Of a stretch of DNA of 64,000 nt, positions 36,236-62,778 are shown piece by piece; position 1 is the first letter of the stretch; each line of letters starts with the position of its first letter. The notes below the pieces were generated by a model. The model was not told where the DNA came from, searched no databases, and saw only the letters and a program-made list of their open reading frames with translations. The stretch is taken from the NCBI GenBank assembly GCA_951406725.2, contig OX597817.1, positions 46,934,001 to 46,998,000 of the forward strand, read 5' to 3'. The stretch is from Octopus vulgaris. Lineage: Eukaryota. A program made the position numbers and the translations under genes.

Positions 36236-36660
36236 TAACAGTTATCGCCAAGCTAATATGGCAGTCAATAAATATAAGACTAAAGCTGCCGTTGATTAGC
36301 TCCAAGAGGCCATCGCCTCTAGCTAGCTATATGACACACGAACCTGTGTCCATTATAACCTTCGAACAGGGGAGGTTAGCCGCTTTCCCTTGTTGGTCAG
36401 ACATCTGCTGACATGTTTCGGGGTATTTGCCCTTTATCAATGCAGATATCTGACCAGCAAGGGGAAAGCTGACCTCCCCTGTTCGAAGGTTATAATGGAC
36501 ACAGGTTCGTGTGTCATATAGCTAGCTAGAGGCGATGGCCTCTTGGAGCTAATCAACGGCAGCTTTAGTCTTATATTTATGGACTGCCATATTAGCTTGG
36601 CGATAACTGTTAATTTCCAGTACCGCTGCCATAGTCTCCTTTAGAGAGACTTAGAAATTT
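36236..36660. repeat. Fold-back element: ~172-bp inverted arms around a 33-nt spacer
   Basis: Arms 36236-36408 and 36442-36612 are reverse complements with a few mismatches or indels; (TA)n on both sides. Confidence 0.95.
36404..36446 (-). ncRNA. Minimal HHR with U3-A8 variant core
   Basis: TCTGC A TTGATAA A GGG-caaatac-CCC GAAA CATG TC A GCAGA. Confidence 0.7.
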
Positions 36661-36784
36661 TAATATATATATATATATATATATATATATATATATATAT
36701 ATATATATATGTACTCATTTTTTTACAATTTAAAAATATACTGTTGGAATGAAAGCGTTAATAAAACTATGAAAAGTAATAATT

Positions 36785-36986
36785 AATTCTACTTTAGGCA
36801 TTTGGAGGGAGGAGACTAACCGATTACGTCGACGCCGGTGTTTCACTGGTACTTCATTTATCGACCCCGAAAGGATGGAGGGCAAAATCAACATCGGCGG
36901 AATTTTGAACTCAGAACGTAAAGACAGGAGAAAAACCACGAAGCATTTTCGCCGGCGTGCTAGCGATTCAGCCAGCTCGCCGTCTT
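36785..36986 (-). mobile_element. SINE family B
   Basis: Family B head and core on the minus strand. Confidence 0.75.
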
Positions 36987-37058
36987 TACGAAAAGTAATA
37001 ATAAAACGTATTTCCTCTACTTCTGACTACTTTCTTTTATATATTTTCATGTGTGTGT

Positions 37059-37255
37059 GGAGGCGCAATGGCCCAGTGGTTAGGGCAGTGGACTCGCCGT
37101 GGTAGGATCGCGGTTTCGATTCTCAGACCGGGCGTTGAACGAAAACACCTAAAGCTCCACGTGGTTACAGCAGGGGGATGGCGAACCCTGCTGCACTCTT
37201 TCTCTCACTCTTTCTTCCTGTTTCTGTTGTACCTGTATATCAAAGGGCCAGCCCT
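37059..37255 (+). mobile_element. SINE with family C head and family D-like body, truncated
   Basis: Head as at 2404, then gttgtacctgtatatcaaagggccagcc as in 61736-61763. Confidence 0.75.
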
Positions 37256-37593
37256 CTATGATTTTATTTTTGATCTTCTATATAAATGAAAATATTTCCT
37301 CTGTTTGGCTGCTTTTCTCTCTACAAAATGGAAAGTTACATTGCGGGACAGTCATTTTAACGAGTTGTATTCATTTATCACCCGACGAGATACATCTGCA
37401 CCCGAACCAATTGTTGAGTGTCCCACCCAAGAGGAATCGATGCTAGATGTGTCGAAATAATTGTCGTGATTAATAATAAATTCTCGTATATTCCATCTTC
37501 CGGCATTCATTTGCCAAATATATATATATATATATATATATATATATATATATATATATATATATATATATATATATATATATATATATATAT

Positions 37594-37870
37594 AAACAAT
37601 TGCAGCGTGGAAGGTGTTTATAAGCCATTTAAGTAACACACAAAAAAAACGTTAGATTCACTTCAACATTTAAATTTTATTTGTCAAAAATATTTTCATC
37701 GCTTTGAAACCGTGACCTGCTCACTGACAAAATTTAGATGTTGAAGGGAATCTAACGTTTTTTGTGTGTTTCTTAAATGGCTTATAAACACCTTCCACGC
37801 TGCAATTGTTTTCGTTCCAGCACACGATCACAGATCAGGTGACTTGCTATGCAAGTATATCTCCGTAAAT
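37594..37870. repeat. Fold-back element: ~90-bp inverted arms
   Basis: Arms 37594-37686 and 37725-37811; flanked by (TA)n. Confidence 0.9.
37680..37732 (-). ncRNA. Degenerate minimal HHR with G3-C8 variant core
   Basis: TTTGTCA GTGAGCA G GTCAC-ggtttcaaa-GCGAT GAAA ATAT TT t TGACAAA. Confidence 0.55.
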
Positions 37871-58870: not shown

Positions 58871-59287
58871 TGACGTCAATACACCACCACGTCAACAAGT
58901 ATCAGTATGGCCATAATACGGAAGGAGCTTCTTATCCTGTCTCTTGACCCTTTAGAAATAGCAGTCAAGTCTCTAGAAAAATCAAACATATTACTGTTTT
59001 AAAAATGGAAGGATATACGAGAGAATAAATACCAGGTTTCAACAAATAAATACGAGGGTCGATCTGTTCGGCTAAAACATTTCCAGGTGCCTCTCCTGTC
59101 TGGCCACAGTGCAGTGACTGAAACAAGTGAAAGAAATGATACAAAATATACATACACACATATATATGTTTGTGTGTATATATATATATGTGTGTGTGTG
59201 CGTACATACATATATATACATATATATATATATATATATAGAGAGAGAGAGAGAGAGAGAGTGTGTGTGTGTGTGTGTGTGTGTGTG

Positions 59288-60962
59288 TGGTTGTGTGGTA
59301 AGAAGCTTGCTTACTAACCACATGGTTGGTACCTTCGGCAAGGATCTTCTGCTATAGCTTCGGGCCGATCAAAGCTCTGTGAGTGGATTTCCTAGACGGA
59401 AACTGAAAGAAGCCCGTTGCACATATATATATATGTGTGTGTGTGTGTGTGTGTGTGTGTGTGTGTGTGTGTGTGTGTGTGTGTGTGTGTGTGTGTGTGT
59501 ATATATATATATATATCTATATATATAAAACTGTAGTTGTGTGAGTGTCTGTCTCCTACGGTTTAGATTCCTAACTCCTCCCACATTTTGCGGTGCAGTT
59601 TAACCAAATTCGGGTATCTTATAGTCGTGATTAATATCGAGTCCGTCTGGCTATTAGCGCGCGTCTACGATGAGTCTACGATTTTAAAAATAATTTAACA
59701 TCAATTTTTATTCCATTTTAATGCATAATTTTTCGTGTGTCGATGGCGGCGGAGTTGGCGTCCACGCTCAAACACCTGCACCTGTGTTTGCTTCTCCCCC
59801 TTCTTCCCTCCCTCGTGAAGCTGTGGGGAAGGGAGTTTAAGGAAATCAACGTCGTAAAGCGTTGTCAAGGAGACCAGCGTTCTTTTAGAACAACGACTTC
59901 ATGGCTTGAAGACACCAAAACAGAAATGGCTAAGAAAGCCTGAATTGGCATCTATAAAGAAAGTAACTCTCTAAAAATGCTTATATAGTTATTTCCCTTA
60001 CAAACCCGAGCAACGCCGGGCGATACTGCTAGTATATATATAATAATAATTATAATAATTATAATAATATAATATAAATGATATATACATGCATATATAT
60101 ATATACGTATATGTACATACAACTATACGTATATATATATATATATACATATACATATATACATATATACATATATATATATATATATATATATATATAT
60201 ATGTATATATGTATATGTATATATATATATATATATATATATATATATATATATATATATATATATAGTTGTATGTACATATACGTATATATATATGCAT
60301 GTATATATATATATATATATATATATATATATGCATATGTGTGCACAGGATGTCATGAAACGTGTACAACAAAAAAATACGAAGTACGAGTACATGGAAT
60401 ATGAACTATTTTTTTCGAACAAAAGACACAAATGGAAACAAACCAACATAAGGAATGACCCTTCAACAGTTGTTGGCTGTTTTCTAGTCTCGTATTTCGA
60501 GCATTTAACAACAATATACGCTTTCGATAAAAGAGTTGCTCCCGCAAAGCAAATTAAATGAAATTTGGGATTTTGCGGAGGGTCAAAATTGGTGACACAA
60601 ACAGGACAGAGAAAACAATCAAGAAGGGCTGCTAAGCCTTAAACGAGGTTGTGGTGACGAACGCGTAAATCAGGTTTGGACAGGAGACAGACAAGAACAC
60701 GTCTTCCTTGTTCCAGCTACATACATATATATATGTATGTATGTATTTATTTGTGCGTCTGTGTTTGTCCCTCCACGTATCATCGCTTAACACCGATGCT
60801 GGTATGTTTACGGTCCTGTAACTTAGCGGTTCGGCAAAAGAGATCCGATTGAATTAGTACTAGGCTTATAAAGAATAAGTCGTGGGCTCCATTTTTTTCG
60901 ACTAAAGGCGGTGCTCCATCATGGCCGCAGTCAAATGGCTAAAACAAGTAAAAGAATAAAAG
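59288..60962 (+). mobile_element. SINE A split at its internal microsatellite (head 59288-59420, tail 60750-60962)
   Basis: Collinear, same-strand, complementary halves. Confidence 0.65.
59516..60032 (+). mobile_element. Non-autonomous Helitron, complete
   Basis: a|TC start, CCCG-agcaacgc-CGGG hairpin at 60005-60020, CTAG|t end. Confidence 0.85.
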
Positions 60963-61598
60963 GATATATACATATACAGCATGAATATTTATAATTGCAA
61001 AATCACTTAGGAATTGAACTCGAATCTCTATATCCTATGCAAAAGAACAAAAAAAAAACAAAAACAAAACACAGCAACAAAGTAACTCGGTCGCGATTCG
61101 CTCAAATATTAGCGACGTCATCAACAAATCTGACCATTTATGACTTCTTGCGGAACCGGATCTAATGGCAATTTAATGTTTGGTGCGCTTTTCCTGAAAA
61201 TGACATCGCTGTATACTCGGTGCATTTTAGCCGCAAGACTGCAGGTAGAAGCAATGGAAGTCAAGCAGCAGAGACCAGACGACAGCAGTGTCATAAAGCC
61301 ACGACAATCGAAGATAGCGACGGCGACGACGGCAACACAGCCTAACCAGCTAACGCCAAGAAACATGGCGGCAGCTTCTGTTGTAGCTGATCGAACAAGA
61401 TATCGTGTAAAACTTTGAACTGTCTTACCCGTGTAAAGATGGTTTACTAAAGATGAAAATACCTTTGCATAAAAAAAATGAGGTAATTTATTGTCTCGTT
61501 ACCAAATCGTAATACTATTGACACTGGTGCAATCGACAAAAATAGCATTGTAACATACACACACGTACACAAACACATACATTCATATATAAATATGT

Positions 61599-61917
61599 GA
61601 GGGCGCGTGGCTTAGTGGTTAGGGCATTCGGCTCATGATCGTAAGGTTGTGAGTTCGATTCCCGGCGACGCGTTGTGTCCTTGAGCAAGACACTTTATTT
61701 CACGTTGCTCCAGTCCACTCAGCTGGCAAAAATGAGTTGTACTTGTATTTCAAAGGGTCAGCCTTGTCACTCTCTGTATCACGCTGATTATCCCCGAGAA
61801 CTACGTTAAGGGTACACGTGTCTGTGGAATGCTCAGCCATTTGCACGTTAATTTCACGAGCAAGCTGTTCCGTTGATCGTATCAGCTGGGACCCTCGTCG
61901 TCGTAACCGGCGGAGTC
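61599..61917 (+). mobile_element. tRNA-derived SINE family D (CORE-like), full length
   Basis: A box TGGCTTAGTGG, B box GAGTTCGATTCC, tgtgtccttgagcaagacactt. Confidence 0.85.
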
Positions 61918-62721
61918 TTTTTTTTTTATATAAATATGAATATATAAATATATGTGACGCACATGGTTGGGAATTGGAGGGAAAGACGAATTCACTCGTC
62001 TATATAAATGTAGATATGCTGATTAGCTTTTATATGTTCTGATGGCGCTGGGTCAGAAATATAGAGGGTAAGTTTTCCTAGCATTTTCAGATTTATAATT
62101 GCCGAAATATTATGTTGATAACGGAAATGAATCTTATGATTCTAATCCAGAAACGCGTCTATAATTAATCGAAGACTGTTGATTTCGTTCTTTTTTCTTC
62201 TTTTTTGCCATGTGTGAGTTACAAACATCGTTGTCTGTGGAGACATATTTTTGTAGAAAAAAGAAATAGTAGTCTTTTGGCTGCTATTTCTAAAATTTTC
62301 GGTATGTGGTCAAGAAACTTGTTGCTAAACCCTTATTGTTATAATTATATATATATATATATATATATATATATATATATATATATATATATATATATAT
62401 ATATATTCAAATATGACTTAGAGGCCATATGTGTATTCGATTTTGTTTATATATCGAACACACAAGAGTAAACAAGAGAGAAAGAAAGAGGCAGCAACAA
62501 GGAAAATGCCACTTATATTTGAACACTGTGCAAATATTCTTTTAAAAACTTTTCTTTTAATTTTTCCAAAATTTAATTGTTTTCCATACTTACAGTTGAA
62601 AGCGTCTCAATGACTGAAACAGGTACTGAAATGTTTTTTATAAAATTATTTTAGCATTTTCGATCTTGACTTTTCTTCCCATATATATTGAAGGGAGACA
62701 GAGTCGTCCCAGCAGCAACTA

Positions 62722-62778
62722 GTGGGAACACGGGATGCATTTCGGTGTAATTGGCCTTTATCAATGACGTCTACTCAC
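62722..62778 (-). ncRNA. Minimal HHR with U3-A8 variant core
   Basis: gtgagtagacgtca TTGATAA A GG-ccaattaca-CC GAAA TGCA TC ccgtgttcccac. Confidence 0.6.

What the first reader, a model, noticed from the sequence alone, without database searches (positions are those of the whole stretch)
36404..62778. Covariation of the HHR 3-8 core pair across unrelated elements (C-G, U-A, G-C)
Seen: canonical C3/G8 cores at 2191 (CUGAGGA) and 47430 (CUGAUGA); UUGAUAA at both 36434-36440 and 62758-62764 with different stems; GUGAGCA at 37718-37724. Known: positions 3 and 8 form a Watson-Crick tertiary pair in active HHRs, and double substitutions can retain activity. Inference: these paired changes are not random decay but mark functional variant ribozyme families that CUGANGA-only searches would miss.
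Basis: partly seen in the sequence, partly recalled or inferred. Interest (0 to 1): 0.8.

Follow-up and report, generated by a model that had tools for sequence, protein, structure and literature searches.

The report
Hammerhead core pair swaps four ways
In this animal genome, families of Penelope-type jumping genes carry hammerhead self-cutting RNA motifs whose core 3-8 base pair is fixed as C-G, U-A, G-C, A-U or U-G in different families, which likely means the catalytic fold is still under selection and shows that searches for the textbook core miss most copies of this class.

Summary
Confirmed and extended. All five cores lie at the stated coordinates (four on the minus strand). They are damaged copies of repeat families with type I minimal hammerheads and palindromic stem III. 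With positions 3 and 8 left free, family 36434 is U3-A8 in 98 of 100 listed copies, family 37718 G3-C8 in 93 of 100; neither shows C3-G8. Genome-wide, one stem-III class holds 7,848 doubly substituted cores (control 503), 93 of 100 U3-A8. Within single families the pair switches: A3-U8 82/G3-C8 12, and C3-G8 43/U3-A8 42. Against a strict rule: U3·G8 wobble families (about 600 copies) and a small C3·A8 subfamily also spread; only about four or five independent switches underlie the counts; copies do not end at the cut site; cleavage is untested. Natural U3-A8 is published (Perreault 2011, Cervera 2014); natural G3-C8, A3-U8 and U3·G8 families were not found in my searches, but Lünse 2017 was unreadable. 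The scan earlier noted U3-A8/G3-C8 swaps in a phage. New variant of a known kind.

The parts
36236..36612 (.). Head-to-head inverted insertion of family A (about 362-bp non-autonomous monomer); the hammerhead sits at the centre
   Evidence: self-blastn 90% over 382 nt; 362-bp tandem spacing of relatives
36395..36455 (-). Type I hammerhead, family A: core U3-A8 at 36440-36434, GAAA 36419-36416, palindromic stem III ACAUGU, C17 at 36410; this copy has an A·A mismatch at 1.1-2.1
37600..37810 (.). Inverted insertion of family B (3' end of a Penelope-like element, inserted in (TA)n)
37678..37732 (-). Type I hammerhead, family B: core G3-C8 at 37724-37718, extra G before stem II, GAAA 37697-37694, U17 at 37687; stem II decayed, extra U in stem III
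62724..62775 (-). Type I hammerhead, old family C: core U3-A8 at 62764-62758, palindromic stem III AUGCAU, C17 at 62734; stems I and II damaged
2150..2205 (-). Decayed canonical (C3-G8) hammerhead of old family D, 10-nt near-palindromic stem III, A17
47425..47462 (+). Decayed canonical (C3-G8) minimal hammerhead, stem III ACGU, C17 (family E)
   Evidence: 12 matches: 9 C3-G8, 2 U3-G8, 1 C3-A8
50583..53483 (+). Broken copy of a young autonomous Penelope-like element (family P): ORF1-like frame, reverse transcriptase, GIY-YIG end
53625..53666 (+).
62585..62645 (+).
   Evidence: one search compared by eye with L203, L204

Best explanation
These sites are copies of type I minimal hammerhead motifs in the terminal repeats of Penelope-like retroelements and their short tandem derivatives, and positions 3 and 8 are fixed as a pairable couple (C-G, U-A, G-C, A-U, U·G) in every major family examined, likely because master elements are selected to keep the 3-8 tertiary pair of the catalytically active fold. 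Shown: the family cores, the stems, the palindromic stem III, the link of families P, Q, R and B to RT/GIY-YIG frames, and the within-family switches. Inferred: two motifs dimerise through the stem III palindrome, G8 (or its replacement) supplies its 2'-OH while its base only has to pair with base 3, and weak, probably protein-assisted cleavage at H17 releases unit-length RNA that is then ligated or jumped across during reverse transcription, so that inserted copies read through the cut site. The pair changes stepwise through tolerated intermediates (U-A to U·G or C·A to C-G; A-U to G-C), and each new state is then multiplied by amplification.
For: Family A: 161 matches, first 100 = 98 U-A, 1 A·A, 1 U·G. 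Family B: 1,739 matches, first 100 = 93 G-C, 3 U·C, 3 G·U, 1 G·G; loci chosen by downstream sequence only give the same cores. Family P: 616 matches, 100/100 U-A, in both pLTRs of elements with 811-869-aa frames. Generic ACNNGU class: neither-C3-nor-G8 7,848 vs control 503, first 100 = 93 U-A; C3-any 741 vs 142, first 100 = 71 C-G, 26 C·A, 3 C·U; non-C3/G8 707 vs 188, first 100 = 85 U·G, 14 A·G, 1 G·G. Family R1: 146 matches, first 100 = 82 A-U, 12 G-C, 4 A·C, 1 U·C, 1 G·U (Fisher 2x2 p=2.5e-11). Family S3: 433 matches, first 100 = 43 C-G, 42 U-A, 8 U·G, 7 C·A (p=1.1e-12). All row counts are by eye. Stems I, II and III also change by compensatory pairs between subfamilies (alignment). Stem III is a perfect palindrome in 6 of 7 non-window representatives. 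C3G/G8C rescues activity in a PLE hammerhead (PMC11167929, passages) and in a type III one (PMC9901934, passages).
Against: Copies are related, so the p-values overstate the case: the trees imply only about four or five independent switches, with moderate support, and the R1 DNA tree is unresolved. U3·G8 is a family state in at least two families (29 and 38 of 100 rows) and 7 C3·A8 rows in S3 share their own loop, so strict Watson-Crick pairing is not required for spread. No excess of copies ends at the scissile bond: by eye 99 of 100 listed A rows and 99 of 100 listed B rows continue across it for at least a few letters, the exceptions being fold-back junctions in stem I. In PMC9901934 only the G-C swap rescued, other doubles were low; in PMC11167929 cleavage was not needed for insertion in vitro and no reads ended at the cut site. 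The ACGU class shows no bulk excess of double substitutions (729 vs control 1,028), nor does the purine-3/pyrimidine-8 search (1,706 vs 2,030). No autonomous partner was found for A, C, D or E.
Confidence: 0.75

Rival explanations
1. The fold is selected, but not for cutting: the 3-8 pair is kept because the folded motif is a binding or positioning signal for the element's protein, splicing or translation, and cleavage is negligible.
For: Read-through at the cut site in nearly all copies; very short stem II in P and R (2-3 bp); cleavage dispensable in vitro and protein-assisted for PAc (PMC11167929); HHR function in EN+ PLEs called unclear and possibly parasitic (PMC8557442); putative 3' splice sites abut stem I in families Q and B.
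Against: G5, A6, A9, G12-A15.1, U16.1 and a non-G at 17 are kept in all variant families, and the 3-8 pair is described as a feature of the active, tertiary-stabilised conformation (PMC3884650); circular or jumped templates also predict read-through.
Confidence: 0.15
2. Founder effect: a few master elements happened to carry altered cores and were amplified; the pairing is a coincidence of few events and the ribozymes are largely dead.
For: Few independent switches; mismatch or wobble subfamilies did spread; 26 of 100 C3 rows are C·A.
Against: Five pairable states are fixed as family majorities while none of the ten fully non-pairing states other than C·A was seen as a subfamily; U-A to A-U needs two transversions and still ends paired; in R1 double changes (12) outnumber single ones (6), which neutral decay of one master cannot give; G3-C8 occurs in two lineages with distant endonucleases.
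Confidence: 0.08
3. Register or pattern artefact: the variant cores are chance readings inside repeats that have another, canonical register or no ribozyme.
For: One real case was found: an abundant ACGU family read as UUGAAAA is a shifted C3-G8 core with U at position 6; loose motifs are common.
Against: Families A, B, P, R1 and S3 have 6-9 contiguous stem I pairs beginning exactly at 2.1-1.1, which fixes the register; reversed controls give 0.
Confidence: 0.02

Closest known systems
Minimal type I hammerheads of Penelope-like elements, including the U3-A8 variant of Schistosoma mansoni Cercyon (about 1,300 hits; Cervera and De la Peña 2014, PMC4209133)
   Same: Type I topology, place in the pLTR behind an RT+GIY-YIG frame, short palindromic stem III, optional extra base before stem II, head-to-head pairs, U3-A8 covariation.
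   Different: Here U3-A8 is the dominant state of the young elements, and G3-C8, A3-U8 and U3·G8 are also family states; that paper's text (parts 1-2 of 4 read) names only U3-A8.
Natural core variants of Perreault et al. 2011 (PMC3088659, section 8)
   Same: C3-G8 covarying to U3-A8 in several natural ribozymes.
   Different: Rare there; the section read reports no G3-C8, A3-U8 or U3·G8, and no within-family path.
Metazoan non-LTR retrozymes (Cervera and De la Peña 2020, PMC7229834; Li et al. bioRxiv 10.64898/2026.07.22.740005)
   Same: Family A and its relatives form tandem 359-362-bp monomers, one type I hammerhead each, no reading frame.
   Different: Variant cores; hexamer palindromic stem III; circular RNA not shown here.
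Engineered C3G/G8C rescue (Frangieh et al. 2024, PMC11167929; Roberts et al. 2023, PMC9901934)
   Same: Same G3-C8 swap, partly active in vitro.
   Different: Laboratory double mutants, not natural families; A-U and U-A doubles were low in the Roberts construct.
Hammerhead variants of Lünse, Weinberg and Breaker 2017 (PMC5785218)
   Same: [quoted passage not shown]
   Different: Not held; whether it already reports G3-C8 or A3-U8 could not be checked.

Membership tests
PLE minimal type I hammerhead | Invariant core U4 G5 A6, A9, G12 A13 A14, A15.1-U16.1, H17 | tested here: met
PLE minimal type I hammerhead | Bases 3 and 8 can pair | tested here: met
   majority states U-A, G-C, A-U, C-G, U·G; one C·A subfamily is the exception
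PLE minimal type I hammerhead | Stem I starting at 1.1-2.1 and stem II closing the core | tested here: met
   6-9 bp stem I, 2-5 bp stem II in intact copies of A, B, P, R1, S3; damaged in the window copies and in family C
PLE minimal type I hammerhead | Short palindromic stem III suited to dimers | tested here: met
   perfect hexamer palindromes in 6 of 7 representatives; self-dimer only -0.2 kcal/mol for B
PLE minimal type I hammerhead | Located in the pLTR behind an RT + GIY-YIG frame | tested here: met
   P, Q and R, B (L343; one locus of two fetched). GIY-YIG Pfam scores are below the curated cut-off
PLE minimal type I hammerhead | Same link for families A, C, D, E | tested here: inconclusive
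   no PLE frame beside the A, C or D loci held; E not fetched
PLE minimal type I hammerhead | Self-cleavage at H17 | not testable with these tools
   only contigs were offered
Non-LTR retrozyme (family A and relatives) | Tandem 170-400-bp monomers each with a type I hammerhead, no frame | tested here: met
   359-362-bp spacing
Non-LTR retrozyme (family A and relatives) | Expressed as circular RNA | not testable with these tools
   no raw RNA reads
Non-LTR retrozyme (family A and relatives) | Canonical loop 1-loop 2 tertiary contacts | not tested
   not examined
Rfam hammerhead families | Covariance-model match | tested here: inconclusive
   none among the 150 shown of 269 matches at E<=5; 119 lower rows hidden

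The most novel reading that the evidence does not exclude
One animal genome holds a complete natural neutral network for the hammerhead's catalytic tertiary pair: active Penelope-type elements have walked C-G, U·G, U-A, A-U and G-C, with A3-U8, G3-C8 and U3·G8 families not described in nature before and canonical cores a minority of the hexamer-stem class. This would be the strongest comparative evidence so far that PLE hammerheads are selected for the active conformation in vivo, and would mean ribozyme censuses in animals are badly undercounted.
Probability: 0.45. Interest if true: 0.75.

Novelty: new variant of a known kind. Interest (0 to 1): 0.58.

Why it matters
Why Penelope-like elements carry hammerheads is open: cleavage in vitro is weak, was dispensable in the one reconstituted system (PMC11167929), and the motifs have been suggested to be parasites (PMC8557442). 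The 3-8 pair belongs to the active conformation, so its repeated compensatory change in amplifying elements argues for selection on that conformation. The families give ready natural substrates (U-A, G-C, A-U, U·G, C·A in nearly identical scaffolds) to rank 3-8 pairs in their own context. In practice, descriptors fixed on CUGANGA miss most motifs of the ACNNGU class in this genome, including that of its youngest autonomous element.

Tried and rejected
Rfam scan of the window: only microsatellite-driven miRNA matches among the rows shown. Copy ends at the cleavage site as genomic proof of cutting: not found. Autonomous partners: 8 stretches with paired A or B motifs held no PLE frame; L342 was a segmental duplication, L343 gave the B-linked frame. 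Homology of family C (62758) to the family A superfamily outside the ribozyme: 0 of 4 family C rows matched the profile, so common origin of the two U3-A8 cores is neither shown nor excluded. DNA tree of family R: 22 of 35 inner branches open; no direction or event count for A-U versus G-C inside R1. ACGU-class search: below its control, and its commonest hit is a register artefact; the reversed-pattern control lacks CpG depletion and overestimates background. Canonical cores of the ACGU and other stem III classes were not counted, so the 14:1 ratio holds for one class only. Sequencing runs: no RNA holder listed on record; four runs laid were contigs only, covered both A and B in four coded organisms, and showed no other-letter row at positions 3 or 8 among the 40 shown with 53 hidden, which is too weak to use. 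Literature: term searches for G3-C8/G3C8, A3-U8/A3U8, U3-G8 (0 papers) and covariation returned no natural G3-C8, A3-U8 or U3·G8 family in the rows listed; Lünse 2017, Przybilski and Hammann 2007 and Nelson and Uhlenbeck 2008 could not be read; supplementary file 1 and parts 2-3 of file 2 of PMC4209133 were not read and may bear on novelty.
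Full report
Setting. The window is G000:C4:46934001-46998000 of a 2.8-Gb, microsatellite-rich animal genome; it looks cephalopod-like to me, which is recalled and untested. Pattern searches of this genome list the first 100 matches and give whole counts plus a reversed-pattern control; all 'k of 100' figures below are my counts by eye of those first rows, which come from the first contigs only.

Observation. All five heptamers are at the stated places, four on the minus strand. On their own they prove little: a stem-free motif occurs 131 times in the window with 40 complementary at 3/8, and 81 times with 25 complementary in the reversed control. 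A descriptor with stems I, II and a palindromic stem III found 0 hits in the reversed control of 462,707 bases and almost only family members in the real sequence. The 36434 and 37718 sites lie at the centres of long inverted repeats, the head-to-head arrangement described for Penelope-like elements (PMC8557442, passages).

Families of the five sites. Family A (36434): 161 exact matches with 3, 7 and 8 free; 98 U-A, 1 A·A, 1 U·G, no C-G; loci picked by downstream sequence alone agree; tandem copies are 362 bp apart. Family B (37718): 1,739 matches; 93 G-C, 3 U·C, 3 G·U, 1 G·G; a downstream pattern gives 3,559 matches; the family has a 5-bp stem II, an extra G and A at 7, so the window copy is decayed. 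One of two long B loci fetched has an RT-thumb/GIY-YIG frame upstream of the motif (L343), only 27% identical over 92 aa to the family P protein. Family C (62758): 7 copies at 74-79% identity, 5 U-A, 1 C·U, 1 unreadable. Family D (2191): 13 matches, C-G wherever the core survives. Family E (47430): 12 matches, 9 C-G.

Missed sites. A broken Penelope-like element at 50583-53483 belongs to a young family (8,881 first-look candidates, frames to 869 aa; RVT_1 E=3e-7, GIY-YIG E=0.003). Its pLTRs carry a U3-A8 hammerhead (window 53632): 616 matches, 100 of 100 U-A, and 43 U-A plus 1 U·G in loci chosen by the RT alone. A decayed relative of family Q lies at 62596.

Genome-wide test. For cores with G10.1, C11.1 and stem III ACNNGU, three searches cover all 16 combinations. 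Neither C3 nor G8: 7,848 against 503 control; 93 U-A, 3 U·U, 1 each A·A, U·C, G·A, A-U, from at least eight stem II/III types. C3: 741 against 142; 71 C-G, 26 C·A, 3 C·U. G8 without C3: 707 against 188; 85 U·G, 14 A·G, 1 G·G, with two U·G families making up 29 and 38 rows. Extrapolated: about 7,300 U-A, 600 U·G, 530 C-G, 190 C·A. The ACGU class gave 729 against 1,028, no bulk excess; it contains one true U-A family (L177, L195) and one register artefact. A purine-3/pyrimidine-8 search was also below control (1,706 against 2,030) but exposed recurring A3-U8 and G3-C8 motifs.

Switches within homologous families. Family R1, a pLTR behind a GIY-YIG frame (7 of the 18 R-type and neighbouring loci examined show the frame end): 146 matches; 82 A-U, 12 G-C, 4 A·C, 1 U·C, 1 G·U (p=2.5e-11). 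Doubles outnumber singles, so both states were masters; sister groups are G-C (L316-L318, L320) or A-U (L309, L312). The DNA tree with 3 and 8 masked is unresolved. Family S3, a tandem relative of A: 433 matches; 43 C-G, 42 U-A, 8 U·G, 7 C·A (p=1.1e-12). Seven of the 8 U·G rows share one loop and all 7 C·A rows another, so intermediates were themselves copied. The masked tree (27 rows; family C rows left out) places U-A rows basal, then C·A, then C-G (93/90, 81/88, 96/90), a return to the canonical pair with moderate support; stems I-III change by compensatory pairs in the same alignment. An endonuclease tree (15 rows, 161 columns, midpoint root) has U-A families T, Q and P outside one clade of A-U and G-C elements (86/86; P plus R 84/89). 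I count about four or five independent switches; copy numbers add nothing to that number.

Mechanism. Shown: anatomy, family states, links to PLE frames, palindromic stem III. Inferred: dimer folding through the palindrome and cleavage at H17, as proposed for PLE motifs with low in-vitro activity (PMC4209133, parts 1-2 of 4). The 3-8 pair appears in the tertiary-stabilised structure and not in minimal ones (PMC3884650, passages), and the 2'-OH of G8 is the proposed general acid (PMC6155905, passages), which explains why the base can change if it still pairs. Copies do not stop at the cut site; this fits ligated circles or template jumps, but equally uncleaved templates, as reported for PAc (PMC11167929, passages).

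Comparison with print. Natural U3-A8: Perreault 2011 (section 8 read) and about 1,300 motifs in S. mansoni PLEs. G3-C8 works as an engineered rescue; in the pairwise scan other doubles were low, which makes the A3-U8 families the least expected result. My searches and passages of PMC6765202, PMC7229834, PMC13725137, PMC10085705 and part 1 of 5 of bioRxiv 10.64898/2026.07.22.740005 showed no natural G3-C8, A3-U8 or U3·G8 family; part 1 of 3 of the Cervera supplement showed only C3-G8 rows. Lünse 2017 and Przybilski 2007 were not held, so the novelty claim is provisional.

Verdict. Activity is not shown, the rule is 'pairable' rather than strictly Watson-Crick, and the principle is known. New variant of a known kind; interest 0.58.

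Noticed in passing
L167, L169, L181-L190 (G000:C1): An abundant ACGU-class family has a C3-G8 core with U in place of A6 (CUGUUGA); it mimics a U3-A8 core when read three bases late.
   Followed up: partly
L196, L203, L265; window 62570-62596: In family Q a pyrimidine tract plus CAG, like a 3' splice site, ends immediately before base 3, so splicing would replace the 5' strand of stem I, as described for D. virilis Penelope; family B has a similar site about 20 nt upstream of its core (L059, L343).
   Followed up: no
L050:830-2600: Tandem array of about 170-bp family B units, each with a G3-C8 motif and a (TA)n spacer.
   Followed up: partly
L159:728-4464: Family P has two overlapping frames (492 aa without Pfam match, then 869 aa RT+GIY-YIG), suggesting a frameshifted ORF1.
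   Followed up: no
L319:955-990: A single G3-C8 motif with a B-like stem II but different stem III and diverged downstream sequence; possibly a second B-type subfamily.
   Followed up: partly
window 14009-15396: 416-nt inverted repeat, 99% complementary, 556 nt apart; not examined.
   Followed up: no
window 5017-5379 and 8898-9264: 184-bp tandem dimers of a dispersed SINE-like repeat; relatives give chance hits to loose hammerhead patterns (L198, L321).
   Followed up: no
window 38239-40136: Broken non-LTR (RT-bearing) element directly downstream of the family B palindrome.
   Followed up: no
L308, L313, L333, L335, L340: A subgroup of R1 carries a short tandem duplication of the stem I 5' strand and part of the core just upstream of the motif.
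   Followed up: no
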